A stretch of 64,000 nt of DNA from an uncultured bacterium (GCA_963844965.1 CAWJQC010000009.1:1-64000), one strand, 5' to 3'; shown: positions 1 to 17,563, counted from the first letter of the stretch. A program made the numbers and translations. Notes: generated by a model not told the origin, from the letters alone.

Positions 1-14
1 GCCGTTTTTTTTCG

Positions 15-2757: not shown

Positions 2758-2763
2758 CAGTTC

Positions 2764-2794
2764 GCGGTGGAGAGAATAAAATCTCTCCACCGCG
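2764..2794 (+). terminator. strong stem-loop downstream of nadV (gcggtggagaga-ataaaat-ctctccaccgc), no clear U-tract
   Basis: 11-bp perfect inverted repeat immediately 3-prime of the nadV stop. Confidence 0.35.
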
Positions 2795-2951
2795 CCCCAC
2801 GCGAGTGATTTATTGCGGAGTAGATCTTTCGCGCGGAGTTCAAAAATTTAAAAAAAGCAGCTTGGCGGCGCATCGGGCAATGACTGAGCAGGAAAAATAA
2901 AACTGCGCGGGCTTATGGCCCGACCTCACTCGAATTCAAACCCAAGATAAC

Positions 2952-3853
2952 CTACGGCGACAAGTTTACGTTCCCGCTGTAATAATCAAACAAGGCCTTG
3001 ATACCGGAGAGATTGCGTTCCCACTCGATTGTGTCGTGAGTTTGAAGTTCTACTGTGATCGCCGGAATGCCGATGGACGCAAGCCACCCTTCGGCGTCGC
3101 CGGTGACTGGGTAGCTGTTGAACGATTTCACAGCCGGGTACGCGGCGGCATGTGCGTATGCGTTCATGATGTCGAGCGTCGTGGGAAGGATGCCGGCATT
3201 GCACTGCGATGCGTACACGGCATTTGCCTGACTGTGCCAGAAGATCGCGGCGGCCGGATGGGTTTGTAGGACGAAATTCCGGATAGCCGCAGTTTCCGGT
3301 TCAGAGAATGGTCCGGACCCCGCGCTCACCGTCTTTCCCTGCCATGTGCCCGTGGACTGCCAGTTGCAGTCAAAGTTCCGGTTAAGATCAACCCCGTGCG
3401 CGTTGAACCGCCCGGCGCCAGGGAAATATTTGTCGGCACGTCGGCGATCGTAAAACGCCCAACTTTCCCGATCACTTTATATACTCCATCGGGATTCACG
3501 GACGGGACTACGGTGACCGAGAGAGTTGCGGGAATGATCTCGGGATGCGCATCAAGATAGTCCACAAACGCATACGCCAGAAGCACGCTGTTCCATTCAT
3601 ATCCGCCGTGCATGCCGCCGACAAAGAGAAGCAGGGTCTTTCCGTTTCCATATGTATATGCGTCAATGGCGCGCTCTTCCACAGAGGTACCGATGACCGT
3701 GTGTTTAGGTCCGGAAGTTTGGGGTTCAACTTGATTTACGGGAGTGGGCGGCGGCGCTTGCTCGCGCCTGCTCGATACCACAAATATGCCCACGCCGAGC
3801 GCGACGAAAACGAGCGCAGCCGCGATAACCCACTTCGTTCCGGAGCGACGCAT
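2952..3853 (-). pseudogene. M14 zinc carboxypeptidase paralog, interrupted by a frameshift (about 3330-3440)
   Basis: N-terminal 175-aa ORF (TM helix, HGGYEW, NPDG) and C-terminal 125-aa ORF (SAGSGPFSEPETAAIRNFV...) are collinear with the intact neighbouring paralog but lie in different frames. Confidence 0.6.
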
Positions 3854-4776
3854 TATTTTCCGTAGTATTGAAGCAGTGCCTCTACGCCAGCCAGATTCTT
3901 ATCCCACTCAACATCGGTATGCGTCGTGAGGAGAACACTGATCGCGGGGATGTTTTGCGCGGCTAACCAATTAACCATATCGCCGGTTAATTTATAGAAA
4001 TCGAAGCTCTTATATGCCGGGTAACCGGATGCGGCCGCGTAGATGGAGGTGATTTTCTTTGTCTCGGCCAAAATCCCATTGTCGCAGCTTGAGGAGAACA
4101 CGCCGCCGGCGGCGCTGTACCAGGCAACAACCGCAACCGGATTGTGCGCGCCTACGTAATCCCGTATGGCCCGGCTTTCCGGCTCGGAGAATGCCGCGCT
4201 TCCTCCGCTCACGGGCGTAGTTTGCCAGACGCCGGTGGCTTGCCAATCGCAATCAAAGTTGCGGCTAAGATCCACATTGTTCGCGTTAAAGCGGCCGGAT
4301 ATCTGGACGGCCGATGACGATGGTACGTCGGACGCCGTGAAACGAGCCGTGGTGCCGACGACTTTATTCAGACCGTCCGGGTTCAGCACCGGAATGACCG
4401 TAACTGTCACGTTCTGGGGAATGGCTTCGGGATGTGCCTTCAAATAATCCATAAGGTCATACGCGACAAGAGCCGTATTCCACTCGTACCCGCCGTGAAT
4501 GTCGCTGATAAAAAGCAGTTCCTTCGCGCCCGAGCCGTAGTGGTATGCGACGATATCGCGTCCTTGGACAGATGTGCCGATGACCGTCTCGCCTCCTGCC
4601 GTGTTTGGGTTCGGCGTACTACTCGCTTGCGTCACGCTCTGCGGCTGACTCGTGGTTGAGGTTGGTGCCTGATTCTGCGTGATGTTCACGGTACCGGGAG
4701 AACTCCGGGTGAAGATGTATATACCGACGCCGACGAGCACAATAACAACAACGAGTGCGATAATTATTTTTTTCAT
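3853..4776 (-). CDS. M14 family zinc carboxypeptidase (gamma-D-glutamyl-diamino-acid peptidase-like), N-terminal TM anchor
   Basis: 307 aa. HGGYEW (HxxE zinc ligand), VLNPDG, and C-terminal TTHTDVEW, typical of M14. N-terminal hydrophobic helix plus S/T/Q-rich linker. Confidence 0.7.
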   Translation of the reverse strand: MKKIIIALVVVIVLVGVGIYIFTRSSPGTVNITQNQAPTSTTSQPQSVTQASSTPNPNTAGGETVIGTSVQGRDIVAYHYGSGAKELLFISDIHGGYEWNTALVAYDLMDYLKAHPEAIPQNVTVTVIPVLNPDGLNKVVGTTARFTASDVPSSSAVQISGRFNANNVDLSRNFDCDWQATGVWQTTPVSGGSAAFSEPESRAIRDYVGAHNPVAVVAWYSAAGGVFSSSCDNGILAETKKITSIYAAASGYPAYKSFDFYKLTGDMVNWLAAQNIPAISVLLTTHTDVEWDKNLAGVEALLQYYGK

Positions 4777-4906
4777 CCCGTTTAGAAGCAGATCGCGGTC
4801 AGGCGATCTGCAAAATTATTTTTTATATACGACGTTTTGTTTATTCTTTTCTAATTGTATATTATGTAACGCGACCGTGGCTTCTAACGGGATTCATAGT
4901 AATCCT

Positions 4907-4937
4907 ATTATACCATAAAGCGGTCAAATTTTCTCAA
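4907..4937 (-). promoter_or_regulatory. sigma70-like promoter for the M14 peptidase gene (TTGAGA ... TATGGTATAAT, extended -10)
   Basis: Reverse strand reads cgcTTGAGAaaatttgaccgcttTATGGTATAATagg, about 130 nt upstream of ATG 4776. Spacer slightly long. Confidence 0.4.
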
Positions 4938-5226
4938 GCGAGGGTTTATCCCTTGGCGCAAAATGTCCCTCGCCGAAGTTGAACGCAAACGAGCGCCTGT
5001 CTGCCGGCGAGGCAGGCGTTCGGCGGCGCATCGGGCCATTCCTACAGTCGTTTCGCGCCGAGGAAGGCCTCAAATGGTCGTTTTACCAGTACGGTTTTTT
5101 TGTTTGCTCTTACGGCCGATTCGTTGTATTATTATAACCGTACTACTTCGCGTTCGCGCGCCCCTCATGCAGGGGATTTTATTTCTGCGTACCGTCGTGT
5201 TCGGCGGCTAAAATAATTTAATTGCT

Positions 5227-7062
5227 ATGGAATTAAGGAATGTTGCTATAATTGCCCACGTTGACCACGGTAAGACCACATTGGTTGATGCCTTATTGAA
5301 GCAGTCTTTGAATTTTAAGCTGAAGGTTGACGCGCCGAGCGAACTCATCATGGACTCTAACGAGCTTGAGCGAGAGCGGGGGATTACTATTTTTTCCAAG
5401 AACGCGGCCGTGAGGTACGGAGACATAAAAATAAATATCGTGGACACGCCTGGCCACGCGGATTTCGGCGGCGAAGTGGAACGCATCATGCGCATGGTGG
5501 ATGGCGTGCTTCTCCTCGTGGACGCGAAAGAAGGGCCGATGCCGCAGACGAAATTCGTTTTGCGGAAGGCGATTCAGGCTGGGCATAAGATAATCGTCGT
5601 CATAAGCAAGATTGATAAGCCGGATGCGAGGCCGGAGTGGACGTTGAATGCGACCTACGAACTTTTCTTTGAGCTCGGAGCGAGCGAATCGCAGATAGAG
5701 TTTCCTGTTGTCTACACCTCTGCCGTCCAGGGAAAAGCCGGCATGACGAAAGATTTAAGCGCGATGAAAAATATAGAACCGGTTTTCCAGACCATAGTCA
5801 AATACATTCCGGCTCCGCTCGTAAACGAGGGAAAACCTCTGCAGATGCTCACGGTAAATCTTGCCTACGACAACTACAAAGGGAAATTGGCCGTCGGCCG
5901 TCTGTACTCGGGGACACTGAAGAAGGGGATGACCGTGGCGCACATCAACCGCGCCGGGAAAATTGAAAAAGCCGGTTTGAGCGCCGTGATGCTTTTTGAC
6001 GGATTGGGCCGCGTGGACGTTCGGGAAGCACCAGCCGGGGATATCGTCGCCGTCGCCGGCATTCCCGACATTACTATCGGCGAAACTATCGCCGACGCGG
6101 AAAATCCGGTCGCCCTGCCGATAATAGAGATAGACGAGCCGACAATAAAAATGACATTCGCCGTGAACACTTCGCCCTTCCGCGGCAGGGAAGGGAAGTT
6201 TACGACTTCAAGAAATCTCAAGGAACGCCTGGAGCACGAACTGGAAACTGACGTCGCTCTTTCCGTGATGCCCACGGAATTTACCGACCACTGGACCGTC
6301 TGTGGCCGCGGCGAACTGCACCTCTCCATCTTGATAGAAAAGATGCGGCGTGAGGGTTATGAACTGGAAGTTTCTAAGCCACAGGTTATTTTGAAAGAAA
6401 AGGACGGGAAGAAACTGGAACCGATGGAACTTACTTCCGTGGAAGTTCCCGAAGCGTATTCCGGCGCGGTGATAAAACTCATGGGAGGGCGGCTCGGCGT
6501 GATGAAGGACATGCGCGTGGATAAGAATATCGTGTTCATGGATTTTGCCATACCGACGCGCGGACTCATCGGCATACGCGACAAGTTTCTCACGGCAACG
6601 AAAGGCACGGGCATCATGAACAGCATTTTTTTGGGATACGAGGGATACAAGGGTGAATTGAGTTCCGTTCAGCACGGTTCTATTGTCGCTACCGAAGGAG
6701 GACTTACGAACAACTACGGACTGGTCACGGCGCAGGGACGCGGCATTTTGTTTTTGGGTCCTGGCGTGCCCGTGTACGAAGGAATGGTTGTCGGGAAAAA
6801 TGCCAAGGCGGGCGATGTTGCGGTGCATGTCTGCCGCCAGCGCCAGCTCACCAATTTCCGCGCCAAGAACGAAGGGCTTGCCGATCAGTTGGAAACGCCG
6901 CTCAATCTTTCACTTGAGGACGCTCTGGACTATATCGGCGACGATGAGCTTGTGGAAATCACGCCCAAGAGCGTGAGAATCCGTAAACTGTCCCTCACCG
7001 AAGTTGAACGTAAACGAGCTCGCTCGGCGGTGAATCGGACCGAGGTTTTGCAAGATAAATAA
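5227..7062 (+). CDS. typA: translational GTPase TypA/BipA
   Basis: 611 aa, N-terminus MELRNVAIIAHVDHGKTTLVDALL (G1 motif), DTPGHADF (G3), length and domain order of BipA. Confidence 0.92.
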   Translation: MELRNVAIIAHVDHGKTTLVDALLKQSLNFKLKVDAPSELIMDSNELERERGITIFSKNAAVRYGDIKINIVDTPGHADFGGEVERIMRMVDGVLLLVDAKEGPMPQTKFVLRKAIQAGHKIIVVISKIDKPDARPEWTLNATYELFFELGASESQIEFPVVYTSAVQGKAGMTKDLSAMKNIEPVFQTIVKYIPAPLVNEGKPLQMLTVNLAYDNYKGKLAVGRLYSGTLKKGMTVAHINRAGKIEKAGLSAVMLFDGLGRVDVREAPAGDIVAVAGIPDITIGETIADAENPVALPIIEIDEPTIKMTFAVNTSPFRGREGKFTTSRNLKERLEHELETDVALSVMPTEFTDHWTVCGRGELHLSILIEKMRREGYELEVSKPQVILKEKDGKKLEPMELTSVEVPEAYSGAVIKLMGGRLGVMKDMRVDKNIVFMDFAIPTRGLIGIRDKFLTATKGTGIMNSIFLGYEGYKGELSSVQHGSIVATEGGLTNNYGLVTAQGRGILFLGPGVPVYEGMVVGKNAKAGDVAVHVCRQRQLTNFRAKNEGLADQLETPLNLSLEDALDYIGDDELVEITPKSVRIRKLSLTEVERKRARSAVNRTEVLQDK

Positions 7063-7183
7063 ATATCACGCCGACCGGGGGTGCGGGGTTTTTGTCTCTT
7101 GGGACGCTGGAGTAAGAGGCTCAAACTGGCTAATTTCGGTCATAATATGACTGTGGATAACTTTCGGTTTACTTTCGGTATTA

Positions 7184-7199
7184 TGGTATAATCAAATCT
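7184..7199 (+). promoter_or_regulatory. extended -10 promoter (TGgTATAAT) ending 7 nt before the ATG: predicted leaderless transcript of the LexA-methyltransferase gene; upstream TTTCGGT repeats (7125-7180)
   Basis: Sequence ggtattaTGgTATAATcaaatctATG. Three TTTCGGT copies and a GTCATaatATGAC palindrome lie just upstream. Confidence 0.45.
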
Positions 7200-8654
7200 A
7201 TGATTACAAAAAGACAAAAACAAATTTTAGATTTGATTACGAGCTATACCAAGAAGCATGGATTTGCTCCTTTATTAGAAGAAGTTAGAAAGCGGTTGCA
7301 CCTACGTTCAATTTCAACGGTTCACCAACATGTTGAAGCTCTCAAAAATAAAGGTTATTTGCTAAAACAAAAAAATCAACGCCGCGGTATAGAGATATCG
7401 AAGTCCGAAAAACTAGTTCAAGTGCCACTTCTCGGCACAATTGCCGCTGGTCAACCGATTGAAGCCATTGAAGATAAAGAAAATATGGTTGTGCCGCGAA
7501 ATAAACTCCCCAGAACTGGTGAAGTATATGCCCTGCGAGTACAAGGCGACAGTATGATTGACGAAAACATTCACGATGGCGACACCATTCTAGTTAAAAA
7601 ACAAAACACCGCCGAAAATGGCGACAAAGTAGTCGCGCTCCTTAATGGGAACGAAGCGACGCTTAAAACTTTTTATAAAGAAAGGGGGCAAATACGACTA
7701 CAACCAGCAAATAAAAATTATCAGCCAGTTATAGTAAAAAACGGGCAACAACTTTCTTTGCAAGGCATCCTATTTGACGTGATCCGAACAAGCGAAGCAG
7801 AACAATCAACTAAATCCTTCGTTTTGTCACCCCGAAAAGATGCCCTGCGACGAGGCAAAATCTCCGACTACCTCAATAAAGTTTACAATGGTGACATAAT
7901 GCACGTTCTAAAAAACTTGCCCGACAACAGCGTTGATATGATATTCGGAGATCCTGATTACAATGTTGGCATAAGATATGGCAGTAATAGTTATACGAGA
8001 GACTTCGATGATTATATAAATTGGTATATAGAACTTACCAAAGAATCAATGCGTGTGTTAAAAAATGACGGCAATATTTTTATGATGAACTACCCGAAGC
8101 AAAATGCACATCTCCGCGTCAAATATTTAGATTTATACTTTCCACACATTAACGAATACGTTTGGGTTTACAATACAAATGTCGGACATACACCAAAAAG
8201 GTTTACAACGGCACATAGAACCATACTCCATGTCAGAAAATGCGCTAATAATAAGTTTTACAAAGACGCCGTCGCACTTCCCTATAAAAATCCAACGGAT
8301 AGAAGAATCCGACAAAATTTAGCGAATGGCTCAAAAGGAAGAATGCCCTATTCTTGGCTTGAGTTTAATCTTGTGAAAAATGTGAGTAGAGAAAAAACTT
8401 ACCATGCCTGCCAAATCCCACAAAAACTAACCGAGATGCTAGTTAAAGCGTCAACCAAACAAGGGGATATAGTGCTAGTTCTCTTCGGTGGCAGTGGTGC
8501 GGAAATAGATGTATGTAGAAATTTAAAACGCCAGTTTATCTCCGCTGAAATAGATAAAAAATACTGCGATATTATAAACAGCCGACTTGCAAACGGCTAC
8601 ATTGATAAGCAATATCGCCTTGGACCACGAGGCAAGAAAATATCTATGGGATAA
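7200..8654 (+). CDS. fusion protein: full LexA-like repressor (HTH + S24 autopeptidase) fused in frame to a beta-class N6-adenine/N4-cytosine DNA methyltransferase
   Basis: N-terminal part: wHTH, IAAGQP (Ala-Gly cleavage site), GDSM (Ser nucleophile), TLKTF (Lys). C-terminal part: motif IV FGDPDYNVG before motif I LVLFGGSGAEID, which is the beta-class order. One continuous 484-aa ORF in about 36% GC DNA. Confidence 0.75.
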   Translation: MITKRQKQILDLITSYTKKHGFAPLLEEVRKRLHLRSISTVHQHVEALKNKGYLLKQKNQRRGIEISKSEKLVQVPLLGTIAAGQPIEAIEDKENMVVPRNKLPRTGEVYALRVQGDSMIDENIHDGDTILVKKQNTAENGDKVVALLNGNEATLKTFYKERGQIRLQPANKNYQPVIVKNGQQLSLQGILFDVIRTSEAEQSTKSFVLSPRKDALRRGKISDYLNKVYNGDIMHVLKNLPDNSVDMIFGDPDYNVGIRYGSNSYTRDFDDYINWYIELTKESMRVLKNDGNIFMMNYPKQNAHLRVKYLDLYFPHINEYVWVYNTNVGHTPKRFTTAHRTILHVRKCANNKFYKDAVALPYKNPTDRRIRQNLANGSKGRMPYSWLEFNLVKNVSREKTYHACQIPQKLTEMLVKASTKQGDIVLVLFGGSGAEIDVCRNLKRQFISAEIDKKYCDIINSRLANGYIDKQYRLGPRGKKISMG

Positions 8655-9282
8655 TCTTTCGCATACTGGCTGCGTCAAAATGATTTTCGCAAACAAGTAT
8701 AAGAGCCGCGTAAAACTTGTCGCGCCCCGCGCCCTTGCTTGTTGGCCCACCATTCCTGTTTTGTAATCTATATGGCATTGTTGAGCCGCATTCTTTCCAA
8801 GATAATTTATAGTTTAGATCCTCTTGCGCCCACATCCATTTCAGCATCTCTAAAAATTGCCGGGAATCAATACCACCGAGCTTTGGCGGTTCTTTATCAA
8901 TAGTATTATTATCATGTAGCCGTACTATCATTTTCCAAAATTTTTTATTTTTCTTTTTGTGAGTTTCAAAATCTTTTAAAAGATTTGCATAGGTAAAGCC
9001 AACCGAGCTTCCTTCATGCCCTTTTTCAAAGGGAACAACCTCAAAATCATAAAGATTTGCCCAAAGAGATGAATTTTTATTCGGCCTTTTTAATGTGCGT
9101 TGTTTTAACTTATAGCCCGGATACCGAATACCGATACGGGGTTTCGCGATAGTACCTTCCACAATAAATAAATGAGAACCAACCGGTGCGGTATGATAAG
9201 GGAGTAATTCCAGTGTTAAGTTTTTAAAAAAATTCAAACCTCCTGAAATATGTAGTTCGTGTATTTTGGTAGATTTAGACAT
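8644..9282 (-). CDS. hypothetical protein convergent with and overlapping the methyltransferase 3-prime end; candidate cognate restriction endonuclease (unverified)
   Basis: 212 aa from ATG 9282 (MSKSTKIHELHISGG...). Same AT-rich islet as the MTase. No recognisable motif beyond a possible D...E.K pattern. Confidence 0.4.
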   Translation of the reverse strand: MSKSTKIHELHISGGLNFFKNLTLELLPYHTAPVGSHLFIVEGTIAKPRIGIRYPGYKLKQRTLKRPNKNSSLWANLYDFEVVPFEKGHEGSSVGFTYANLLKDFETHKKKNKKFWKMIVRLHDNNTIDKEPPKLGGIDSRQFLEMLKWMWAQEDLNYKLSWKECGSTMPYRLQNRNGGPTSKGAGRDKFYAALILVCENHFDAASMRKIIP

Positions 9283-9287
9283 ATTAT

Positions 9288-10055
9288 TTATAAATAATTT
9301 ATTTTTTTGAGCCAGAATTCGTTTTCCCATTCCCATAGCCGTTTCGCGCCGAGGAAGGCCTCAAGGTCGCTTTGCCAATAGGGGAATTCCTTGAGTTCAA
9401 CGTCGCCTTTGAGTTCGCTCCACTCGTGCGGGCAGTCGCGCATCACCTGGTTGCCCCATTGGATTTTTACCTTCTCCCGCCCACCCTTAACTCTTTTTAT
9501 CGCGCCGCAGAGATTACAGGTCTGTATCTGGTCAATCCTTAAAATCCACCTCGTCTGAAGATTTTGGAACTGGTCCTTCAGGGCGTCCATGTAAGCCGCC
9601 GTTTGCAGATTGTAGTCGCGGTAAATTGCTTGGGAAGTTTTTATGTCCAGAACGCCGAACTTGCCGTCAAGAAGCGCCAAGGCATCAACCGTACCGGCGT
9701 AGCGGTGGTCGTAGTGCACGACACGCCGCTCCACGAGCTCCGGCGTCACCTGAATATTCCTGCCCTCAAAATATTTCAAAAATGCCGCGATTGCCGGCTT
9801 CACCGAGAGGGGAATGTCCGGATTTTTGCCGAGGAGGATGCCCTCAACCGTTTCGTGTATCAGTGTTCCTTCCTCGGCGGATTTGTGCGAAACGCTCTGC
9901 GCCGCCTTAAAATTTTCCGCCTCGCCGTAAAAACGCAAAAGCGCCGGCTTCGCCTTGATGGAGACAATTTTCGTCACGCGCGGATACCAAATGCCGTCAA
10001 TGGTATATCCGCAGGCATTTTTGAAACTTTCCGCGTCTTTGAATTCCCCGAACAT
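9288..10055 (-). CDS. RecB-family PD-(D/E)xK nuclease, Cas4/AddB-nuclease-like with 4-Cys cluster
   Basis: 255 aa. One N-terminal Cys (NACGY) and three C-terminal Cys (CNLCG...DCPHEW). VDAL...LDIKT (D...DxK) and QTAAY (QxxxY) motifs typical of Cas4/RecB nucleases. Confidence 0.55.
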   Translation of the reverse strand: MFGEFKDAESFKNACGYTIDGIWYPRVTKIVSIKAKPALLRFYGEAENFKAAQSVSHKSAEEGTLIHETVEGILLGKNPDIPLSVKPAIAAFLKYFEGRNIQVTPELVERRVVHYDHRYAGTVDALALLDGKFGVLDIKTSQAIYRDYNLQTAAYMDALKDQFQNLQTRWILRIDQIQTCNLCGAIKRVKGGREKVKIQWGNQVMRDCPHEWSELKGDVELKEFPYWQSDLEAFLGAKRLWEWENEFWLKKINYL

Positions 10056-10059
10056 TTTA

Positions 10060-10108
10060 AATAATTTTATTCCTAAAATAAAAAATGAGCAATCCGCGCG
10101 GATTGCTC
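10060..10108 (-). terminator. rho-independent terminator after the SAM-methyltransferase gene (gagcaatccg-cg-cggattgctc + T-tract on minus strand)
   Basis: 10-bp perfect stem overlapping the stop codon, followed by attttttatttt on the transcribed strand. Confidence 0.6.
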
Positions 10109-10715
10109 ATAGACAACGAAAGATATAAAGGACGTAATGTTCATCGTTGAAATCTTTGTCCCGATACCCGCCACCCAAATCTTTCTTCAGAACCAGTTTG
10201 GCGTTGGGTATTTTGTTCAGAAAGGCTCTGCATTCCCTGAAACGCTCCGTGCACCACTTTATGCTCTTGATTTCGCCGATGGCACAAGCCAATACACCGC
10301 CCATCTTAACGAGACGTTGCATTTCGGTGATTGACTTCGGACCGGTTAGGCCCACCATCGCGCTTGATACAACCACATCAAATTTTTTATTGGGGAAGGG
10401 AAGGCGATAGGCGTTGGCATGGGCGCATCCACGATATACCAATTTTACCGCGGCCTCTTTCAAGCGTTTTTCCGCAATATCAACACCGATAAGAGTACCT
10501 TGCCATTCGCTTTGTTGTAGTTCCTGTCCGACAAAACCTGGACCGCAACCCACATCAAGAACCAGCTCGCCGCCGCAGAGAAGGGGAGCGAGATTGCGCA
10601 CTAATAACTGCGGTACCTGCCAGCCCTCCAATCGGGATCCTATCTCGTAAACATCTAAGGAATTATAGAATTGTCGGGCTTGTGTCGAGGTTCTCACGCG
10701 AGTCCTCCTCCACAA
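10107..10715 (-). CDS. class I SAM-dependent methyltransferase (small, non-DNA-MTase type)
   Basis: 202 aa with VLDVGCGPG glycine-rich SAM motif and DIAEKRL motif II. Confidence 0.6.
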   Translation of the reverse strand: MWRRTRVRTSTQARQFYNSLDVYEIGSRLEGWQVPQLLVRNLAPLLCGGELVLDVGCGPGFVGQELQQSEWQGTLIGVDIAEKRLKEAAVKLVYRGCAHANAYRLPFPNKKFDVVVSSAMVGLTGPKSITEMQRLVKMGGVLACAIGEIKSIKWCTERFRECRAFLNKIPNAKLVLKKDLGGGYRDKDFNDEHYVLYIFRCL

Positions 10716-10742
10716 TAATTCTGATAAACTTATATCAAAAAA

Positions 10743-12137
10743 CTATCTTTTTAGCAAGTTGTCCGTGTAATTTACAATATCACCGGCGCCCATCATGACC
10801 AATATACACAAATCACGAGGCACGTAACACGAGACACGAGTCGCAAGAAAACTCTTCAAATTTTTGGGGTTGGCGAGGTAGAAAACCGGTTTGCCGGGAT
10901 ATTTTTTTTGGATCGCGGCGGCGAGAGTTTTGGAGGTGAACCGGTAATCTATTTTGTCGCGGCCGGCAACCTTATAGAAGGGGATTAAAACCGTAGTGTC
11001 AGCGTCGTTGAAGGCGGTGGCGAACTCTTTGAAAAGCGCTTGCAGGCGTTTTGCCTGGTGTGGCTGGAAAACGCAGATGATTTTGGATTTCGGGAATTTT
11101 TCGCGGAACGCCGCGAGAGTTGCTTTAATTTCGGTCGGGTGATGAGCGTAATCATCAAAAATTTTCAATTTACAATTTTCAATTTTTAATTGGCCACGAT
11201 ATTCAAAACGGCGCCAGGAGCCGCGGTAGGCGGAGATTGCCGCGACAATATTCTTGTGAGATATACCAAGTGCGCGGCCGGCTTTATAGGCGGCGACCGC
11301 GTTTGAAATATTGTGGACGCCGGGAATTTTTATGACCTCTTTGATTTTCTTCGCCGTGTTGCCGTGAACTGAATACCACAGAATTTTAAGATTTCTGTTT
11401 TGTGCAATCCTTTTTATTTTCGGCCGCAGAGAAAATAAGTTTTTATCGTCTTTGTTTAGGATTAAAGTGCCGCCCGGTTTTGTGCGCGCGAGAAATTGGA
11501 GGAACGCTTTTTTCACGCCGGCTAAATTTTTATAGGTGTCCAAATGCTCCTTATCAATATTGGTGACGACCGTGAGAGTGGGGGAGTAATTCAGGAATGC
11601 CCGGCCGAATTCATCGGCTTCCAAAACCAGATACGGACCTCTTCCCGAACGGAAATTTTTATCGCCCAGCTCCCTGAGCTTCGTGCCGACAATGATTGTC
11701 GGATCAAGAGCGGCTTTTTTGAGGATTAAGCCGATAAGCGTGGCCGTCGTGCTCTTTCCGTGCGCGCCAGCGACGGCGATTGTTTTGTGGCTTCCCACGA
11801 GCACTCCCACGGCCTCGGGGTAGGTGATAGTTGGGAGCCCCAAGCGAGTTGCTTCACGAAGTTCCGGATTGTCCGCTTTTACCGCTTGGCTGCGTATTAT
11901 AAGGGTTAAATCGGCTTTTATATTGCCTTTTTTATGCCCAAAATTGACCTTTACGCCCTCTTTCTGCAACTCACGAGTAATCCGACTCGGGGTCAAATCC
12001 GAGCCCGAAACAGCCCATTTTTCGCCTCTTTTTCCGGTATGATTTTGTGCGAGAAACCAGCGCGCGAGAGCGCTCATACCGATGCCGCCGATACCGATAA
12101 AGTGGACTTTTTTTTGTCTCGCTCTCGCGCCAGCCAT
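10743..12137 (-). CDS. murC: UDP-N-acetylmuramate--L-alanine ligase
   Basis: 464 aa. VHFIGIGGIGMSALA N-terminal Rossmann motif, GAHGKSTT P-loop, Mur ligase middle and C-terminal domains. Confidence 0.9.
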   Translation of the reverse strand: MAGARARQKKVHFIGIGGIGMSALARWFLAQNHTGKRGEKWAVSGSDLTPSRITRELQKEGVKVNFGHKKGNIKADLTLIIRSQAVKADNPELREATRLGLPTITYPEAVGVLVGSHKTIAVAGAHGKSTTATLIGLILKKAALDPTIIVGTKLRELGDKNFRSGRGPYLVLEADEFGRAFLNYSPTLTVVTNIDKEHLDTYKNLAGVKKAFLQFLARTKPGGTLILNKDDKNLFSLRPKIKRIAQNRNLKILWYSVHGNTAKKIKEVIKIPGVHNISNAVAAYKAGRALGISHKNIVAAISAYRGSWRRFEYRGQLKIENCKLKIFDDYAHHPTEIKATLAAFREKFPKSKIICVFQPHQAKRLQALFKEFATAFNDADTTVLIPFYKVAGRDKIDYRFTSKTLAAAIQKKYPGKPVFYLANPKNLKSFLATRVSCYVPRDLCILVMMGAGDIVNYTDNLLKR

Positions 12138-12450
12138 TAGTTAGATTATAAGAGATTATTCTTTGATTGACACGGGTGGTACGTGATATTCAGGTACTAC
12201 GCGGACATCAAAGGGGAGGCCGAAAAACCCCTTACTTTAAAATATCCTATCTGTCGCACAATATACCTTTTGCGTCAGATATATAACGCACTTACCTTTG
12301 AGTTGTCTCTGACCGGCTCCTAGCACCAGACAATCATCGCCACTTAATAAATATATCTGACCGCAAAAGGTTGCGGCCGTTTTGCAACGTCAGAGAAAGA
12401 AATACTCCCCTCTGCCATCGCAAAACGGCCTTATTAGTCGACCGGATCGG

Positions 12451-12861
12451 CTACTTAATCAGCGACAATCCCTGCCGGATCAGATCTGCGGCGGTGTTGA
12501 GCACCCAAATGACAAGCCCGCCGACTGCCTTGATTATCTGAACGAAGTTCAGCCCGGTAGCGCGGATAAGCCACAAATTCGCGTTTTCTAGCGTGTTTTC
12601 AATGCTTATGCCGCCTCCTCCGCCTGAAGTTGTTGGGATGGTAACGTTCGGAATAACATTGTTGCCGCCGCCAATATTCTGCCAAATTTGTTTACCGGTG
12701 TTTATTAGGCTGTTAATTAAGGTTTGTAACCAGGAAGATAGCTGATCGGTATTCAAATTTAAGTTGACGTCGTAGGCGCGGGCAAAATTGATACCCGATA
12801 AGCATAAAACGGAAACGGCCGCGATTGTCGCGATGACCAAATAATTTTTTTTACCGGCCAT
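12451..12861 (-). CDS. hypothetical small secreted/membrane protein
   Basis: 136 aa, N-terminal signal/TM (NYLVIATIAAVSVLCLSG), Gly-rich centre, C-terminal hydrophobic segment. Confidence 0.4.
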   Translation of the reverse strand: MAGKKNYLVIATIAAVSVLCLSGINFARAYDVNLNLNTDQLSSWLQTLINSLINTGKQIWQNIGGGNNVIPNVTIPTTSGGGGGISIENTLENANLWLIRATGLNFVQIIKAVGGLVIWVLNTAADLIRQGLSLIK

Positions 12862-12871
12862 GTTTTTGTTT

Positions 12872-14179
12872 TTAGAGGTAGCCCAAGGGGTTCAGGTCGC
12901 CTCCGAATGGCATTGGCCCGCAAACCTTGCTCGGACCCATGTAAAAAGTCGGGCTGGCGAACACGGAAAAGTGAAGGTGGGGACCGGTCGCGTAGCCGGT
13001 CATGCCCGAATAACCGATTACCTGCCCCCTCTTTATTGTATCACCTTTTGCGACAATCTGTCGAGAAAGGTGACCATACAATGTCGTAAGATTGTCTGTG
13101 TGCTGAATCACGATAAATTTGCCGTAAGCGCCGCGAGGACAGTATGAATCCTGATTGCCGGTCGCGACGACCGTGCCATCCTCGGCGGCCAGGACCGGTG
13201 TGCCGATCGAAGCCGCGAAATCCACGCCGTTGTGCCAATGGCCTTGATAACCGTTTTTTGCGAATTCAGTCGCGCCGTATCCCTGGGTGATGTCATCCAG
13301 CGTATCGCCGCTGACTGGAATAGCCAAAACTCCGTGTCCGAGCGGAGGAAGAGTTGATGGATCGATTTTGGTCCGCAATACCGCGTCAAGCGCCTCAACT
13401 TCGTCAGCGATTTGCTGCTGTTGTTTTTCAAGATCGGCAACTTGTTTTTCGTAGACCGATTCTTTATTTTTGGTTTGAGTGAGCACGGTTTGCTGTTCGG
13501 TTTTCTGGTCTTGAACTATCAATTTTTTATTTGTCAGGTCCTGCTGGTTGAAAGCTATGCTTTCTTTTTTTTGCGTCGCCTCCTGTATCTTGGAGTCGTA
13601 TTCGTCGTGCAAAGAATGCAGATTCGTTATGTCCGTGGTCAGCTGATCTTGCAGGTTCTTGATGTTTTGAGCCTCAAGGACGCCGTCGGCGAGAGTTTTA
13701 CTTTGCAAAAATACCATCAGTAGATTATTGTTGTTCTCGTCGTTCATTTGAACTTCCACGATGGTCCTTATTATCGCGGCTTTTTTATCGGCTATGGACG
13801 ACTGAATGTCGGTGAGATCATAGCCCAGCGATTCCACTTCCAACCCCAGTTCTTCAATAGTTATTTGATCCGCTTTTATGCTCAGACTGAGTTGATCTAC
13901 GTTGTTTTGAAGAGTCGCGAGTTCTTTTTGGAGCGTAAGCCGGTTGCCCGTCGTTTCGCTCAGGGCTTGTTTTGTAGCCTCAATTTGCTTGTTAAGATCG
14001 TCAAGCTGTTTGGCTTTTTCCTGAACTTGCGTCTGGAGATCCTCCCTCGTCATTGTTTGCGCCGTTGAAGTTGCCGCCGGCGTTGAGGTTGCCGCGGTCT
14101 GGGCGGAAACAAAGTTGCGGCAACAAGCGAGCGCGAGCAAAAAGCTGATCGGTAACGAGATTAGGTAGGCACGCCTCAT
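12872..14179 (-). CDS. M23 family metallopeptidase with N-terminal signal peptide and long coiled-coil (EnvC/LytM-like murein hydrolase or activator)
   Basis: 435 aa. Signal peptide, about 250 aa of Q/E/L-rich coiled coil, then an M23 domain (HNGVDF ... GPHLHF). Confidence 0.8.
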   Translation of the reverse strand: MRRAYLISLPISFLLALACCRNFVSAQTAATSTPAATSTAQTMTREDLQTQVQEKAKQLDDLNKQIEATKQALSETTGNRLTLQKELATLQNNVDQLSLSIKADQITIEELGLEVESLGYDLTDIQSSIADKKAAIIRTIVEVQMNDENNNNLLMVFLQSKTLADGVLEAQNIKNLQDQLTTDITNLHSLHDEYDSKIQEATQKKESIAFNQQDLTNKKLIVQDQKTEQQTVLTQTKNKESVYEKQVADLEKQQQQIADEVEALDAVLRTKIDPSTLPPLGHGVLAIPVSGDTLDDITQGYGATEFAKNGYQGHWHNGVDFAASIGTPVLAAEDGTVVATGNQDSYCPRGAYGKFIVIQHTDNLTTLYGHLSRQIVAKGDTIKRGQVIGYSGMTGYATGPHLHFSVFASPTFYMGPSKVCGPMPFGGDLNPLGYL

Positions 14180-15720
14180 GATTTTTTACGGCTGTCTATT
14201 TTCTCAATAGCCGTTCTGATCCTTCTTGCGGCCTCGTCTTTCCCCAGGATCTCCATTATTTCGTAAGGATCCGGAGACGCGGCTTGTCCGGAGAGCGCGG
14301 CCCGGAGCGGCCAGAGCACCATTCCCCTGCCCTCCTTTTCCATAAGTCCGGAGAAAGCATTCATCAAAATTTCGCGTTTCAGGACGTCGGTTTTGATTGG
14401 CTCCGTTATTTTTAAAATTTCGGTGAGGATGGTTCTGATTTTCGGAAGCGGTTCGTTGTTCCACGAAAGCAAGTTCGCGTCATAATCCGGCAATTCAAAG
14501 AAAAATCCGGCGAGTCCGAAAAATTCGTTCAGAGCCGCGAGCCGCGGACGTTCAACGTCAACGATCTTTTCCAGAAATTCCCTGGAATATTTAATTTTCT
14601 TTTCTTTCAAATATGGCTCTATCATGTCGGCGATCTTAGCCGTCGCGAGCGGCTTCAGGTGTTCTTTTTGCAGCCAGTTCAGTTTTTCCAGGTTGAAAAC
14701 CGCGCCGGCTTTCTGAACGCGCCTAAGGTCAAACACTTTCGTAAGCTCGGGCAGGGTGAAAACTTCTTTTTCGTCTTTGGGATGCCAGCCGAGAAGTGTG
14801 AGGAAGTTCACTATGGCTTCGGGCAGATACCCCTGTTTTTGGTATTCGGAAAGCGCGGTGTCGGCGAAGCGCTTGGACATCTTGCTGCGGTCGGGATTCA
14901 GGATCAGCGGCAGATGCGCGTATTCCGGCTCGTCAAACCCCAGCGCTTTTTGGAGCAGAATTTGTCTTGGTGTGTTTGAGAGGTGCTCTTCGCCACGGAT
15001 GACGTGGCTGATTTTCATTTCATAGTCGTCAATGACCGCCGCCAGATTGTAGAGAGGCGTTTCCAGATCCTTCGCGATCACCAAGTCGCCGAAAAGCGCG
15101 GCGTTGAAGCCAACCTTGCCGCGAATTACGTCCTTGAACTCCACCTGCGCTTCCGGCGTTTTGAAGCGGATTACCTGCGGTTCTTTGTCCTTGGGCGGTT
15201 CGCCGGCTGGAGGATTCAAATTGCGGCAATGGCCGCTGTATTTCGGCGGCAAACCCTGCGCGAGCATCGCCTGCCGCTCTGCTTCAAGCTCCTCTTTCGT
15301 GCAGTAGCAATAATACGCCTTGCCCTCGGCTATAAGTTTCTCCAAATATTTTTTGTAAATTTCCGTCCGCTCGCTCTGCTTGTAGGGCCCATAAGGCCCT
15401 ACCGCGGAATCACGCGGACTGAACGCGGACTTACGCTGACCTTTTCCGCGTAGTTCCGCGTCTTGTCCGCGACGGTCCGCGGTTTGGGGCCCTTCGTCCC
15501 ATTCCAATCCCAGCCACAATAGCCCGTCAATCAGTTCGGTTTCGTATTCTTTCGTTGAGCGTTCCTTGTCCGTGTCCTCTATCCGCAATATGAACTTTCC
15601 GCCGGTTTGCCGCGCGTAAAGCCAGTTAAAAAGCGCGGTTCTCGCCCCGCCCACGTGAAGCGGACCTGTGGGGCTCGGTGCAAACCGGACGCGAACAGGT
15701 TTTTCCGATGCAGCTGCCAT
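14176..15720 (-). CDS. gltX: glutamate--tRNA ligase
   Basis: 514 aa. RFAPSPTGPLHVGGARTALFNWL (HIGH region), ILRIEDTD, SKMSKR (KMSKS). Class I GluRS with an insertion. Confidence 0.88.
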   Translation of the reverse strand: MAAASEKPVRVRFAPSPTGPLHVGGARTALFNWLYARQTGGKFILRIEDTDKERSTKEYETELIDGLLWLGLEWDEGPQTADRRGQDAELRGKGQRKSAFSPRDSAVGPYGPYKQSERTEIYKKYLEKLIAEGKAYYCYCTKEELEAERQAMLAQGLPPKYSGHCRNLNPPAGEPPKDKEPQVIRFKTPEAQVEFKDVIRGKVGFNAALFGDLVIAKDLETPLYNLAAVIDDYEMKISHVIRGEEHLSNTPRQILLQKALGFDEPEYAHLPLILNPDRSKMSKRFADTALSEYQKQGYLPEAIVNFLTLLGWHPKDEKEVFTLPELTKVFDLRRVQKAGAVFNLEKLNWLQKEHLKPLATAKIADMIEPYLKEKKIKYSREFLEKIVDVERPRLAALNEFFGLAGFFFELPDYDANLLSWNNEPLPKIRTILTEILKITEPIKTDVLKREILMNAFSGLMEKEGRGMVLWPLRAALSGQAASPDPYEIMEILGKDEAARRIRTAIEKIDSRKKS

Positions 15721-15820
15721 AAATGCATTTTAACACGAAAAAACGTCAATTTCTACCCCGAAATATGGCAAAAAAAAGCCGCACTTTATGTGCAGGGCCT
15801 GTGGATTTTTGTGCGGAATC

Positions 15821-16087
15821 CTAACCGGCTAGTTTCTTCAAGATGAGGTCGGTATGCTTTATGTTGACCGCATAAACCCGCATCGGAAGAATATACTCAA
15901 TACCTGCCACTTCATACTTCCCTGGTGGTATCATTGACGGAGTGTTTGGTCGAACATTTGTCACTTCCTCGTCTGACGGATCATCCGGGACGACTATTGT
16001 TTCTCCAATCCGAATTGGATAGGTTGATTGGAGGGTTAATAGCGATTCTCCAAAAATAAGCCTGTACCAAATTGTAATTGTAGGCAT
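15821..16087 (-). CDS. hypothetical protein
   Basis: 88 aa from ATG 16087 preceded by aaaGGAGtgggaatc. The longer 123-aa ORF start lacks an RBS. Confidence 0.35.
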   Translation of the reverse strand: MPTITIWYRLIFGESLLTLQSTYPIRIGETIVVPDDPSDEEVTNVRPNTPSMIPPGKYEVAGIEYILPMRVYAVNIKHTDLILKKLAG

Positions 16088-17515: not shown

Positions 17516-17563
17516 CTTCGCAGCCCCGCGCTTGCATTTCAGCACGGGGCATTTTTGTTCCAA

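What the first reader, a model, noticed from the sequence alone, without database searches (positions are those of the whole stretch)
7100..9350. In-frame fusion of a complete LexA repressor to a beta-class DNA methyltransferase, inside an AT-rich islet with a convergent partner gene
- Residues 1-200 of ORF 7200-8654 carry every LexA hallmark: wHTH, the AAG cleavage site (IAAGQP), Ser in GDSM and Lys in TLKTF.
- They continue without a stop into a beta-class amino-MTase (motif IV DPDY before motif I FGGSG).
- The 2.2-kb segment is about 36% GC against a 50-55% backbone, and a convergent, overlapping hypothetical gene (8644-9282) shares that composition.
- The promoter is an extended -10 placed 7 nt from the ATG (leaderless type), with three TTTCGGT repeats and a GTCATaatATGAC palindrome upstream.
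- Hypothesis: an autocleavable LexA domain covalently tethered to an MTase would couple DNA modification, or control of a cognate nuclease, to RecA-dependent self-cleavage, giving an SOS-responsive R-M or defence/addiction module. I am not aware of such an architecture being described.
Basis: partly seen in the sequence, partly recalled or inferred. Interest (0 to 1): 0.85.

Follow-up and report, generated by a model that had tools for sequence, protein, structure and literature searches.

The report
LexA-fused methylase restriction-modification cassette
This is a small mobile restriction-modification gene cassette whose protective DNA methylase carries a complete, apparently self-cleaving LexA repressor at its front end, a design that is widespread in ultra-small (CPR/Patescibacteria) bacteria, that I could not find described in the literature, and that probably ties DNA methylation to DNA-damage sensing.

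Summary
ORF 7200-8654 encodes one 484-aa protein with a full LexA (wHTH plus S24; Ala83-Gly84, Ser118, Lys156) joined by a variable linker to a beta-class DNA methyltransferase. An independent assembly and more than 100 full-length homologues rule out a missing stop codon. The islet (38.6% GC against 50-54%) is a mobile cassette found in unrelated genomic contexts, mostly in Patescibacteria. All 72 classifiable homologues have a convergent, usually overlapping partner gene from one of two unannotated families. About half also carry an XRE controller (C) gene with a C-box. In one locus the same LexA module and C gene flank a different methylase and a BglII-family restriction enzyme. It is therefore a type II R-M system. 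Tandem 11-bp-spaced repeats abut the -10 element and co-vary with the LexA recognition helix, so the LexA module is very probably the methylase's autorepressor. LexA modules are fused to all four major DNA methylase classes, and the cleavage residues are conserved. Not shown: RecA-dependent cleavage, its physiological outcome, nuclease activity of the partner (confident model, no known nuclease fold), and the role of an invariant TGTGGATAACT (DnaA-box-like) motif. No paper describing this architecture was found. I rate it a new variant of a known kind.

The parts
7134..7140 (+). Third, distal TTTCGGT copy. It may be an auxiliary operator and is specific to this window.
   Evidence: No equivalent copy occurs upstream of the box in related loci of the same operator class.
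7152..7162 (+). TGTGGATAACT box. The exact 9-mer matches the DnaA-box consensus TTATCCACA on the other strand. It marks the left edge of the conserved cassette.
   Evidence: The exact 9-mer occurs in 65 of 76 non-redundant fusion promoters, or 72 allowing one mismatch. The motif extends to 11 nt, and the 5' flanks are unrelated between loci. It occurs once in this orientation in the 64-kb window. It is absent upstream of MTase-only relatives.
7160..7181 (+). Tandem direct repeats ACTTTCGGTTT / ACTTTCGGTAT with an 11-bp period. This is the inferred operator of the LexA wHTH domain.
   Evidence: The best direct repeat has an 11-bp period in 65 of 76 promoters. The repeat sequence co-varies with the recognition helix. 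The proximal repeat abuts a -10-like hexamer in 63 of 75 promoters. It is the only match with two or fewer mismatches in the window.
7179..7192 (+). Two candidate -10 elements: TATTAT (7179-7184) and the extended -10 TGgTATAAT (7184-7192).
   Evidence: Read directly from the sequence. The consensus scan, which needs a -35 element, does not call a promoter here.
7200..8654 (+). Fusion gene encoding LexA (wHTH + S24), a linker and a beta-class DNA methyltransferase (484 aa). It is the modification subunit and the inferred autorepressor.
7203..7388 (+). LexA winged-HTH DNA-binding domain (residues 2-63), with the recognition helix around residues 38-50 (ISTVHQHVEALKN).
   Evidence: Pfam PF01726, 54 bits. 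This is the most variable folded domain in the family, at 53% mean pairwise identity.
7425..7772 (+). S24 autoproteolytic and dimerisation domain (residues 76-191). Cleavage site Ala83-Gly84 is at 7446-7451, Ser118 at 7551-7553 and Lys156 at 7665-7667.
   Evidence: Pfam PF00717, 108 bits. Alignment to E. coli LexA. The Ala-Gly bond, Ser and Lys are retained in all 23 full-length family members and nearly all 21 representatives of other fusion classes.
7794..7877 (+). Variable interdomain linker (residues 199-226).
   Evidence: Lowest conservation in the protein, at 41% mean pairwise identity and with indels.
7860..8639 (+). Beta-class N6/N4 DNA methyltransferase domain (residues 221-480). Motif IV DPDY is at 7950-7961 and motif I FGGSG at 8484-8498.
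   Evidence: Pfam PF01555, 126 bits. PADLOC Type II MTase model PDLC03337, E = 1.5e-123, matched end to end. The GDPDYNVG motif is shared by unfused relatives in many phyla.
8644..9282 (-). Convergent partner gene of family A (212 aa), overlapping the fusion gene by 11 nt. It is the inferred cognate restriction enzyme, and its fold is unrecognised.
9291..9311 (-). Possible remnant of the 3' end of the deleted controller (C) gene, now forming the C-terminus (LKKINYL) of the host ORF 9288-10055. Low confidence.
   Evidence: Related cassettes have a 73-aa XRE C gene ending ...YKKDISYFI directly upstream of the partner gene. The resemblance was judged by eye only.

Best explanation
The 7152-9282 islet is a horizontally mobile type II restriction-modification cassette.

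**Components**
- Its modification enzyme is a beta-class DNA methyltransferase.
- The enzyme carries a complete LexA module at its N-terminus, comprising a winged HTH and an S24 self-cleaving dimerisation domain.

**Proposed mechanism**
1. The LexA module dimerises through the S24 domain.
2. It binds the two 11-bp-spaced TTTCGGT repeats, which abut the -10 element of the methylase's own promoter.
3. The methylase therefore represses its own synthesis. This is the same logic as the SsoII/EcoRII-type methylases that carry an N-terminal HTH.
4. When DNA damage or self-restriction produces RecA-ssDNA filaments, the S24 domain cuts the Ala83-Gly84 bond.
5. The wHTH then separates from an S24-methylase fragment that stays intact, and the promoter is derepressed.
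6. Methylase output rises. This would be a damage-triggered 'restriction alleviation' or homeostatic loop protecting the chromosome from the convergently encoded partner (8644-9282), the inferred restriction enzyme.

**Shown**
- The architecture.
- Conservation of the cleavage residues.
- Mobility of the cassette.
- The R-M context.
- Co-variation between operator and recognition helix, and the operator's position next to the -10 element.

**Inferred**
- DNA binding by the LexA module.
- RecA-stimulated cleavage.
- The direction of the physiological effect.
- Nuclease activity of the partner.

The invariant TGTGGATAACT box next to the operator is unexplained. It is most simply a DnaA box that adds a replication-status input.
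For: **Fusion is real and conserved**
- Domain scores.
- The 120 best hits share the architecture at 66-80% identity.
- About 25 species-representative genomes and 80 metagenome loci carry it.
- An independent assembly has an identical junction.

**Mobile**
- Flanking genes differ in every locus.
- DNA similarity to L001 covers only 7188-9267.
- GC is 38.6% against 50-54%.
- tRNA genes flank several copies.

**Restriction-modification system**
- 72 of 72 fusions have a convergent partner, 35 of family A and 37 of family B.
- An XRE/HTH_3 C gene (E = 1e-14) with a C-box-like operator precedes the partner in 30 of 58 assessable loci.
- Family B has distant relatives next to unfused orthologous MTases in other phyla, in a different gene order.
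- In L040 the same LexA module (62-75% identity) and C gene flank a different MTase (about 30% identity) and a BglII-family REase (Pfam 72.7 bits; PADLOC REase_II 7.5e-31).
- The MTase half matches a REBASE-derived Type II MTase model at E = 1.5e-123.

**Autorepressor**
- The best direct repeat has an 11-bp period in 65 of 76 promoters.
- The repeat core tracks the recognition helix. H-F/Y-H/Y goes with TTTCTA; H/Q-Q/E-H goes with NNCGG variants. Fisher p = 4e-8, uncorrected for phylogeny.
- The proximal repeat abuts a -10-like hexamer in 63 of 75 promoters.
- The operator occurs nowhere else in the window.
- In L027 a LexA-like gene, and in L028 a MerR-like HTH gene, occupy the same position as separate genes upstream of the unfused MTase.

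**Cleavage competence is under selection**
- The Ala-Gly bond, Ser and Lys are retained in all 23 family members.
- They are present in 20-21 of 21 representatives of fusions to four MTase classes.

**Precedents**
- M-borne HTH autorepression and C proteins: PMC3874152.
- Damage-linked restriction alleviation in type I systems: PMC11109961, PMC4231737.
- Damage-responsive repressors of defence operons: 10.1101/2022.04.27.489752, PMC11662680, PMC13373217.
Against: - No experiment or expression data supports any step.
- RecA-dependent cleavage cannot be tested in silico.
- No recA gene lies in the window. Whether the host has its own LexA is unknown.
- Partners A and B give confident models but match no known nuclease fold or family. 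The 'restriction enzyme' label therefore rests on gene context only.
- The window's cassette lacks the C gene, so how or whether its partner gene is expressed is unclear.
- In E. coli, LexA fragments are degraded after cleavage (my own knowledge). If that happened to the S24-MTase fragment, the outcome would be less methylation, not more.
- The helix-operator correlation is not corrected for shared ancestry.
- The invariant TGTGGATAACT box is not explained by this model.
Confidence: 0.55

Rival explanations
1. Damage-triggered suicide or addiction switch. Self-cleavage destabilises the methylase, because the fragments are degraded as LexA fragments are. Methylation then lapses and the stable partner nuclease kills the damaged or phage-infected cell, an abortive-infection type of outcome.
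For: - The conserved cleavage apparatus fits this model as well as the best explanation.
- R-M systems act as addiction modules, and an unstable M enhances killing (PMC3874152).
- Many copies lie in defence-rich neighbourhoods containing OLD/TOPRIM, DndB, and Vsr with a C5 MTase.
Against: - Cleavage removes only the 83-residue wHTH. The S24-MTase portion stays covalently intact.
- The same event derepresses the promoter, which works against loss of methylase.
- No degron or protease partner was identified.
- Suicide in response to any DNA damage would be costly for a chromosomal cassette.
Confidence: 0.15
2. The S24 domain serves only as a dimerisation module for a constitutive autorepressor-methylase. 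Cleavage does not occur in vivo, so the system is an ordinary SsoII-style autoregulated R-M system with no link to DNA damage.
For: - Autoregulation by M-borne HTH domains is well known (PMC3874152).
- Other HTH types (MerR-like in L028, XRE C protein) occupy regulatory slots in the same cassettes. This shows that a damage sensor is not obligatory.
Against: - The scissile Ala-Gly, Ser and Lys are essentially invariant across lineages whose wHTH, linker and even MTase class have diverged or been exchanged.
- Residues needed only for catalysis would be expected to drift if cleavage were irrelevant.
Confidence: 0.15
3. The protein is the organism's housekeeping SOS master repressor, to which a methylase happens to be attached. 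It would control a chromosomal SOS regulon rather than just its own cassette.
For: - It scores above the TIGR00498 lexA equivalog cut-off.
- Public annotation calls it 'transcriptional repressor LexA'.
- No other lexA gene is seen in the window.
Against: - The gene travels with its partner as a low-GC cassette in unrelated genomic contexts.
- Its operator changes together with its recognition helix.
- The operator is found only at its own promoter in this 64-kb window.
- LexA modules of this type are attached to at least four MTase classes, and to nothing but MTases in the 20 proteins sampled.
- Only 64 kb of the host genome could be examined.
Confidence: 0.05
4. The cassette is not an R-M system. 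The methylase is an orphan epigenetic regulator, and the convergent gene has an unrelated function, for example an antitoxin-like or DNA-binding factor.
For: - Partners A and B lack any recognisable nuclease fold or family.
- The window copy lacks the C gene.
Against: - The association with a convergent partner is strict, at 72 of 72.
- C gene plus C-box architecture is present in relatives.
- A recognisable BglII-family REase sits at the same position in L040.
- The family B-MTase pairing is kept in other phyla with a different gene order.
- Restriction enzymes are notoriously hard to recognise by sequence or fold (my own knowledge).
Confidence: 0.05

Closest known systems
Autoregulating methyltransferases with an N-terminal HTH (M.SsoII, M.Ecl18kI, M.EcoRII, M.ScrFIA; review PMC3874152)
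   Same: The modification enzyme carries an N-terminal DNA-binding domain. That domain binds an operator overlapping the enzyme's own promoter and represses the enzyme's own gene.
   Different: - The known enzymes are C5 methylases with a simple HTH.
- Here the regulator is a complete LexA (wHTH plus S24 Ser-Lys autoprotease with its cleavage site) on a beta-class amino-methylase, and in relatives on all MTase classes.
- This adds a potential damage-triggered release of the DNA-binding domain.
C-protein-controlled type II R-M systems with convergent C-R and M units (for example Esp1396I; PMC3874152)
   Same: Related cassettes have a small XRE-type C gene with a C-box directly upstream of the partner (R) gene, convergent with the M gene.
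   Different: - The window's copy has lost the C gene.
- The M side is controlled by its own fused LexA module rather than by C.
LexA and LexA-like S24 repressors of mobile elements (LexA, lambda CI, UmuD; solved structures)
   Same: The domain order, cleavage site and Ser-Lys dyad are the same, and the protein scores above the lexA equivalog cut-off. A direct-repeat LexA operator has a precedent in Verrucomicrobia (Erill et al. 2016, recalled from memory and listed in the references seen).
   Different: - It is covalently joined to an enzyme.
- The operator is a direct repeat with an 11-bp period rather than a palindrome.
- As far as 64 kb can show, it regulates only its own cassette.
DNA-damage-responsive repressors of defence operons: CapH/CapP, CapW/BrxR (WYL) and CapK/CapS (10.1101/2022.04.27.489752, PMC11662680, PMC13373217)
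   Same: The concept is the same: a repressor of an immune operon is inactivated when DNA damage or ssDNA appears.
   Different: - The protein families are different: metallopeptidase plus HTH, WYL, and kinase.
- Those regulators are separate genes.
- LexA and S24 are not mentioned in PMC13373217.
- Here the sensor-repressor is fused to the methylase itself.
Restriction alleviation of type I R-M systems by ClpXP (PMC11109961, PMC4231737)
   Same: The proposed physiological purpose is the same: lowering self-restriction when unmodified sites arise after damage, repair or recombination.
   Different: - The mechanism there is proteolysis of the restriction subunit.
- Here it would be transcriptional up-regulation of the methylase through repressor self-cleavage, and this is inferred rather than shown.

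Membership tests
LexA / S24 autoproteolytic repressors (TIGR00498) | N-terminal winged-HTH followed by an S24 domain, scoring above the curated equivalog cut-off | tested here: met
   TIGR00498 scores 181.7 bits against 110.95. PF01726 and PF00717 are both above their cut-offs.
LexA / S24 autoproteolytic repressors (TIGR00498) | Ala-Gly scissile bond and a Ser-Lys catalytic dyad at the aligned positions | tested here: met
   Ala83-Gly84, Ser118 and Lys156 align with E. coli LexA Ala84-Gly85, Ser119 and Lys156. They are conserved in the family.
LexA / S24 autoproteolytic repressors (TIGR00498) | RecA*-stimulated self-cleavage | not testable with these tools
   This needs biochemistry. No recA gene lies in the window.
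LexA / S24 autoproteolytic repressors (TIGR00498) | Represses a chromosomal SOS regulon through SOS boxes at several promoters | tested here: inconclusive
   The operator is found only at the gene's own promoter in the 64-kb window, with no other match at two or fewer mismatches. The rest of the host genome was not available.
Beta-class N6/N4 amino-DNA-methyltransferases (PF01555) | Motif IV (D/S)PP(Y/F) precedes motif I FxGxG, and the Pfam score is above the cut-off | tested here: met
   PF01555 scores 126 bits. DPDY at residue 251 precedes FGGSG at 429. The DPDY variant is shared by all unfused relatives.
Type II restriction-modification system | A type II methyltransferase adjacent to, and co-inherited with, a cognate restriction endonuclease gene | tested here: inconclusive
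   The MTase matches PADLOC MTase_II at 1.5e-123, and 72 of 72 relatives keep a convergent partner. The window's partner (family A) has no recognisable nuclease family or fold. A BglII-family REase occupies the same position in L040.
Type II restriction-modification system | Sequence-specific methylation and cleavage activities | not testable with these tools
   This needs methylome data and enzymology. The recognition sequence is unknown.
C-protein-controlled R-M systems | A small HTH controller gene with a C-box upstream of the R gene | tested here: not met
   It is absent from the window: the partner start at 9282 abuts the host ORF stop at 9288. It is present in 30 of 58 related cassettes.
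SsoII/EcoRII-type autoregulating methyltransferases | The N-terminal DNA-binding domain of M binds an operator overlapping the M promoter | tested here: inconclusive
   Binding was not tested. It is supported by co-variation between helix and repeat and by the repeat abutting the -10 element.
SsoII/EcoRII-type autoregulating methyltransferases | A C5-cytosine methyltransferase catalytic domain homologous to M.SsoII | tested here: not met
   The catalytic domain is N6_N4_Mtase, not PF00145. The protein works like these enzymes but is not a member of the family.
PD-(D/E)XK or HNH nucleases (partner 8644-9282) | A recognisable nuclease fold or profile match | tested here: not met
R.PabI 'half-pipe' restriction glycosylases (partner 8644-9282) | Structural similarity to the R.PabI fold | tested here: inconclusive
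DnaA box | A match to the 9-mer consensus TTATCCACA | tested here: met
   Exact TGTGGATAA lies at 7152-7160 and occurs in 65 of 76 related promoters.
DnaA box | Bound by DnaA, with an effect on transcription | not testable with these tools
   The motif extends to 11 nt and marks the cassette boundary. A role as a recombination or end site is not excluded.

The most novel reading that the evidence does not exclude
LexA-methyltransferase fusions are a general, previously unrecognised control principle of restriction-modification in CPR/Patescibacteria. A RecA-sensing, self-cleaving repressor is built into the methylase, and it occurs on beta, gamma, Dam-like and C5 enzymes alike. It makes the methylation-restriction balance respond to DNA damage. 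The adjacent perfect DnaA box may add a response to replication status. The accompanying partner families A and B would be restriction enzymes with a fold not yet seen in solved structures.
Probability: 0.4. Interest if true: 0.85.

Novelty: new variant of a known kind. Interest (0 to 1): 0.7.

Why it matters
- **A new regulatory input for R-M systems.** R-M systems are thought to be a main defence of CPR bacteria (my own knowledge), yet how they avoid self-restriction is poorly known. A methylase that carries its own damage-sensing, self-cleaving repressor would be a compact way to couple genome protection to the SOS signal. Type II R-M regulation is so far known to use C proteins, M-borne HTH domains, promoter methylation and antisense RNA, not LexA.
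- **Recurrence argues for selection.** The same LexA module is attached to all major methylase classes, and its catalytic residues are conserved. This points to a selected function rather than an accident.
- **Directly testable.** The proposal can be tested with cloned genes in E. coli.
- **Annotation.** Hundreds of these proteins are currently annotated as 'transcriptional repressor LexA'. That could mislead reconstructions of the SOS regulon in Patescibacteria.
- **Possible new enzymes.** The two unannotated partner families are candidate restriction enzymes with no recognisable fold.

Tried and rejected
**Function of partner A**
- Pfam, NCBIfam, PADLOC and a PDB profile search all found nothing.
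- Foldseek against the PDB found nothing significant.

**Function of partner B**
- Searches gave the same negative result.

**Homology between A and B**
- hhalign probability is 1.2%.
- Secondary-structure order and three short motifs are colinear. This is suggestive only, and I could not superpose the models.
I redid it with database homologues.

**Other checks that led nowhere**
- Regulon role: no second operator in the window.
- Phage carriage: the full fusion is absent from IMG/VR. Only an MTase-only hit and a different LexA-MTase fusion were found.
- RNA elements: no Rfam match in 6500-10500.
- No tRNA in 1-20000.
- No recA, dnaA or second lexA in the window.
- The GTCAT-aat-ATGAC palindrome is not conserved in relatives, so I do not count it as part of the system.
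- TGTGGATAACT as the methylase target or the wHTH operator is unlikely. It is absent from promoters of unfused relatives, and it stays invariant while the wHTH varies. Neither role is excluded.

**Literature**
- Seven full-text searches found no description of a LexA-methyltransferase fusion.
- The one directly relevant paper is not held in the library: Sanchez-Osuna, Barbe and Erill 2017, Environ Microbiol, on the Patescibacteria SOS network. I cannot exclude that it mentions these proteins.

Full report
**1. The observation**

ORF 7200-8654 (+) encodes a 484-aa protein. Its domains are:

| Domain | Residues | Score | Source |
|---|---|---|---|
| LexA_DNA_bind (Pfam) | 2-63 | 54 bits | |
| Peptidase_S24 (Pfam) | 76-191 | 108 bits | |
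| N6_N4_Mtase (Pfam) | 245-460 | 126 bits | |
| TIGR00498 lexA equivalog | 2-197 | 181.7 bits (cut-off 110.95) | |

- IAAGQP (81-86), GDSM (116-119) and TLKTF (154-158) align with the E. coli LexA cleavage site, catalytic Ser and catalytic Lys.
- DPDY (251) precedes FGGSG (429), which is the beta-class motif order.
- The junction is not an assembly artefact.
  - An independent Logan assembly of run ERR10755942 is 99.95% identical over window 5581-13644.
  - All four differences lie outside the islet.
  - That assembly calls one three-domain gene, starting at a TTG at codon 12.
- GC is 38.6% for 7100-9350, against 54.0% upstream and 49.6% downstream.
- The convergent gene is real. Homologues place its start at 9282, and it overlaps the fusion gene by 11 nt.

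**2. The fusion is a conserved family carried on a mobile cassette**

- The 120 best hits among 5.8 billion proteins all share the three-domain architecture at 66-80% identity.
- One-genome-per-species scanning finds full-length copies in about 25 species. Most are Patescibacteria classes. A few bins are labelled Elusimicrobia, Pacearchaeota or Woesearchaeota.
- A metagenome scan returned 80 more loci.
- Flanking genes differ in every locus examined.
- DNA similarity between the window and L001 covers only 7188-9267.
- tRNA genes flank several copies.
- Conservation differs by region within the family:

| Region | Mean pairwise identity |
|---|---|
| MTase domain | 80% |
| S24 domain | 72% |
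| wHTH | 53% |
| Linker | 41% |

**3. It is a restriction-modification system**

- All 72 non-redundant fusions that could be classified have a convergent partner, usually overlapping by a few bases. Of these, 35 belong to family A (about 210 aa, as in the window) and 37 to family B (about 275 aa).
- A 73-aa XRE/HTH_3 gene (E = 1e-14) lies directly upstream of the partner in 30 of 58 assessable loci. The rate is the same for A and B. It is preceded by a conserved C-box-like operator, AATCCCAttttGGGATT plus a second element. This is the classical controller-protein arrangement (PMC3874152).
- Family B has 25-30% identical relatives next to unfused orthologues of the methylase in Phycisphaerales, Bacteroidales, Ignavibacteria and Thermodesulfovibrionales, in a different gene order.
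- The most direct evidence is L040.
  - There the same LexA module (62-75% identity) and the same C gene flank a different methylase (SPPY motif, about 30% identity).
  - The convergent, overlapping partner is a BglII-family restriction endonuclease (Pfam 72.7 bits against a cut-off of 26; PADLOC REase_II 7.5e-31).
- The methylase half matches a REBASE-derived PADLOC Type II MTase model end to end (E = 1.5e-123).
- Unfused relatives with the same GDPDYNVG motif occur in many phyla. They are often next to DUF6996/DUF6997 proteins.

**4. The partner proteins**

- Family A has 213 homologues and family B has 274. All are annotated as hypothetical and none has a Pfam domain.
- Both give confident AlphaFold models, with pLDDT 92.5 for A and 87.1 for B.
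- Neither matches a known fold.
  - Foldseek finds nothing significant for A; B was not run through Foldseek.
- hhalign does not relate A to B. Their secondary-structure order and three short motifs are colinear, however.
- Their assignment as restriction enzymes therefore rests on gene context only.

**5. The regulatory region**

- In 76 non-redundant promoters, the best direct repeat has an 11-bp period in 65.
- The repeat sequence tracks the recognition helix, with matching sub-variants. H-F/Y-H/Y helices go with TTTCTA. H/Q-Q/E-H helices go with NNCGG variants. Fisher p = 4e-8, not corrected for phylogeny.
- The proximal repeat abuts or overlaps a -10-like hexamer in 63 of 75 promoters.
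- In the window, the repeats are ACTTTCGGTTT/ACTTTCGGTAT at 7160-7181. They are followed by TATTAT (7179-7184) and TGgTATAAT (7184-7192).
- No other copy of the tandem operator occurs in the 64-kb window at two or fewer mismatches.
- I infer that the LexA wHTH binds these repeats and represses its own promoter.
- Two loci support a 'regulator slot' upstream of M.
  - In L027 a separate LexA-like gene precedes the unfused methylase.
  - In L028 a MerR-like HTH gene does so.
- The -10 to ATG distance is under 10 nt in 25 promoters and 20-40 nt in 43. The leaderless arrangement is therefore not a family trait.

**6. An unexplained invariant motif**

- TGTGGATAA (7152-7160) is exact in 65 of 76 promoters, and in 72 allowing one mismatch.
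- It extends to TGTGGATAACT, and its 5' flanks are unrelated between loci. It therefore marks the left boundary of the cassette.
- It is absent upstream of unfused relatives and has no counterpart at the other end of the cassette.
- The 9-mer is the perfect DnaA-box consensus. From memory, the extended form matches the high-affinity E. coli oriC boxes R1 and R4.
- A DnaA input is the simplest reading. A recombination or end site is not excluded.

**7. The theme is general**

- An exhaustive search of 1.84 billion representatives found the main family and at least 20 further clusters matching across both halves at 37-48% identity. It also found many longer proteins that match only through the LexA part.
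- All 20 that I scanned are LexA_DNA_bind plus Peptidase_S24 plus a DNA methyltransferase. The methylases are N6_N4_Mtase, N6_Mtase/Eco57I (some with TaqI_C), C5 DNA_methylase or Dam-like MethyltransfD12.
- The cleavage-site, Ser and Lys motifs are present in 20-21 of 21 representatives.
- Named members come from Patescibacteria.
- A viral contig (L168) carries another such fusion, followed by a second methylase gene and a convergent Fe-S protein gene.

**8. Mechanism**

- The best-supported model is an autorepressing methylase whose DNA-binding domain is released by S24 self-cleavage when RecA is activated.
- This would raise methylase synthesis. It resembles restriction alleviation of type I systems in purpose (PMC11109961, PMC4231737). 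It resembles damage-responsive regulators of defence operons in logic (10.1101/2022.04.27.489752, PMC11662680, PMC13373217).
- The architecture, residue conservation, operator co-variation and R-M context are shown.
- Binding, RecA dependence, fragment fate and nuclease activity are inferred.
- The main rivals are a damage-triggered suicide switch and a non-cleaving dimerisation role for the S24 domain.

**9. Novelty**

- Seven full-text searches found no description of this architecture.
- A 2013 review of R-M regulation mentions LexA only for toxin-antitoxin systems.
- A 2026 preprint on CPR methyltransferases does not mention LexA.
- The 2017 paper on the Patescibacteria SOS network is not held in the library.
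- The proteins are in public databases under generic names.
- I rate the finding a new variant of a known kind: an autoregulated type II R-M system with a built-in LexA-type sensor.

Noticed in passing
window 7152-7162; also L001-L166 promoters: An invariant TGTGGATAACT motif, whose 9-mer is a perfect DnaA-box consensus, sits at the left edge of nearly every LexA-MTase cassette. It is absent from promoters of unfused relatives, and its function is unknown.
   Followed up: partly
window 8644-9282 (family A); L005 7452-8285 (family B): Two unannotated partner families give confident AlphaFold models with no significant match to any solved structure. Their secondary-structure order and short motifs (PG-K, ED-L/V-N/K, GR) are colinear, so they may be one new restriction-enzyme fold.
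   Followed up: partly
L007 5092-5337, L008 5076-5297, L013, L014, L022 and others; window 9291-9311: A 73-aa XRE controller gene with a conserved C-box-like operator precedes the partner gene in about half of the cassettes. The window has lost it, and the last seven codons of host ORF 9288-10055 may be a remnant of its 3' end.
   Followed up: partly
L040 1423-3663: The same LexA module and C gene flank a different (SPPY) methylase and a BglII-family restriction endonuclease. The regulatory parts are kept while the enzyme pair is swapped.
   Followed up: yes
P0419, P0425, P0429-P0431, P0443, P0456, P0473 and others: LexA (DBD plus S24) is fused to gamma-class (Eco57I/TaqI-like), Dam-like and C5 DNA methyltransferases as well as to beta-class ones. 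All 20 long LexA-containing proteins sampled were methylase fusions.
   Followed up: partly
L168 3974-7328 (IMG/VR viral contig): A viral contig carries a LexA fusion to a third methylase type. It is followed by a second methylase gene and a convergent 359-aa protein with a 4Fe-4S domain.
   Followed up: partly
L027 2252-3843; L028 2730-3789: These are unfused versions of the same cassette. In L027 a separate LexA-like S24 repressor gene lies directly upstream of the methylase gene; in L028 a MerR-like HTH gene does.
   Followed up: partly
L007, L008, L014, L040, L090, L091, L100, L103, L107, L108, L110: about 60-140 nt upstream of the C gene: A non-coding stretch of about 80 nt (ttttgcggcgggc...ccttgcccctccctccctgcgcggaaaag) is conserved beyond the C-box. 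It might be a structured RNA, a terminator or the cassette end.
   Followed up: no
L049 1097-3801, L034, L036, L050: Unfused relatives of this methylase in Helicobacter, Proteobacteria and Bacteroidota neighbour DUF6996/DUF6997 proteins. In H. muridarum the DUF gene sits between a Dam-like methylase and this methylase, so the DUFs are probably restriction enzymes.
   Followed up: partly
window 11215-11220: The window and the independent Logan assembly differ by two single-base indels inside murC. The Logan version splits murC into two genes, so one of the assemblies has an error or the population is heterogeneous.
   Followed up: no
window 7200-7235: The public gene call starts at a TTG at codon 12 (473 aa) rather than at the ATG at 7200. 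This truncates helix 1 of the wHTH. Homologues support the ATG.
   Followed up: partly
window 61885-63747 (-): Serine-recombinase ORFs and a small excisionase-like HTH ORF lie at the end of the window. This is probably another integrated mobile element.
   Followed up: no
L008, L016, L020, L030 (record titles): Nearly identical cassettes occur in bins labelled Elusimicrobia, Pacearchaeota and Woesearchaeota. This reflects either transfer between co-occurring ultra-small organisms or mis-binning.
   Followed up: no
window 9288-10055 (-): The host ORF adjoining the cassette has weak PD-(D/E)XK/Cas4-like matches (E about 1e-3, below the cut-offs). It has backbone GC and is not conserved next to other copies of the cassette.
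   Followed up: partly
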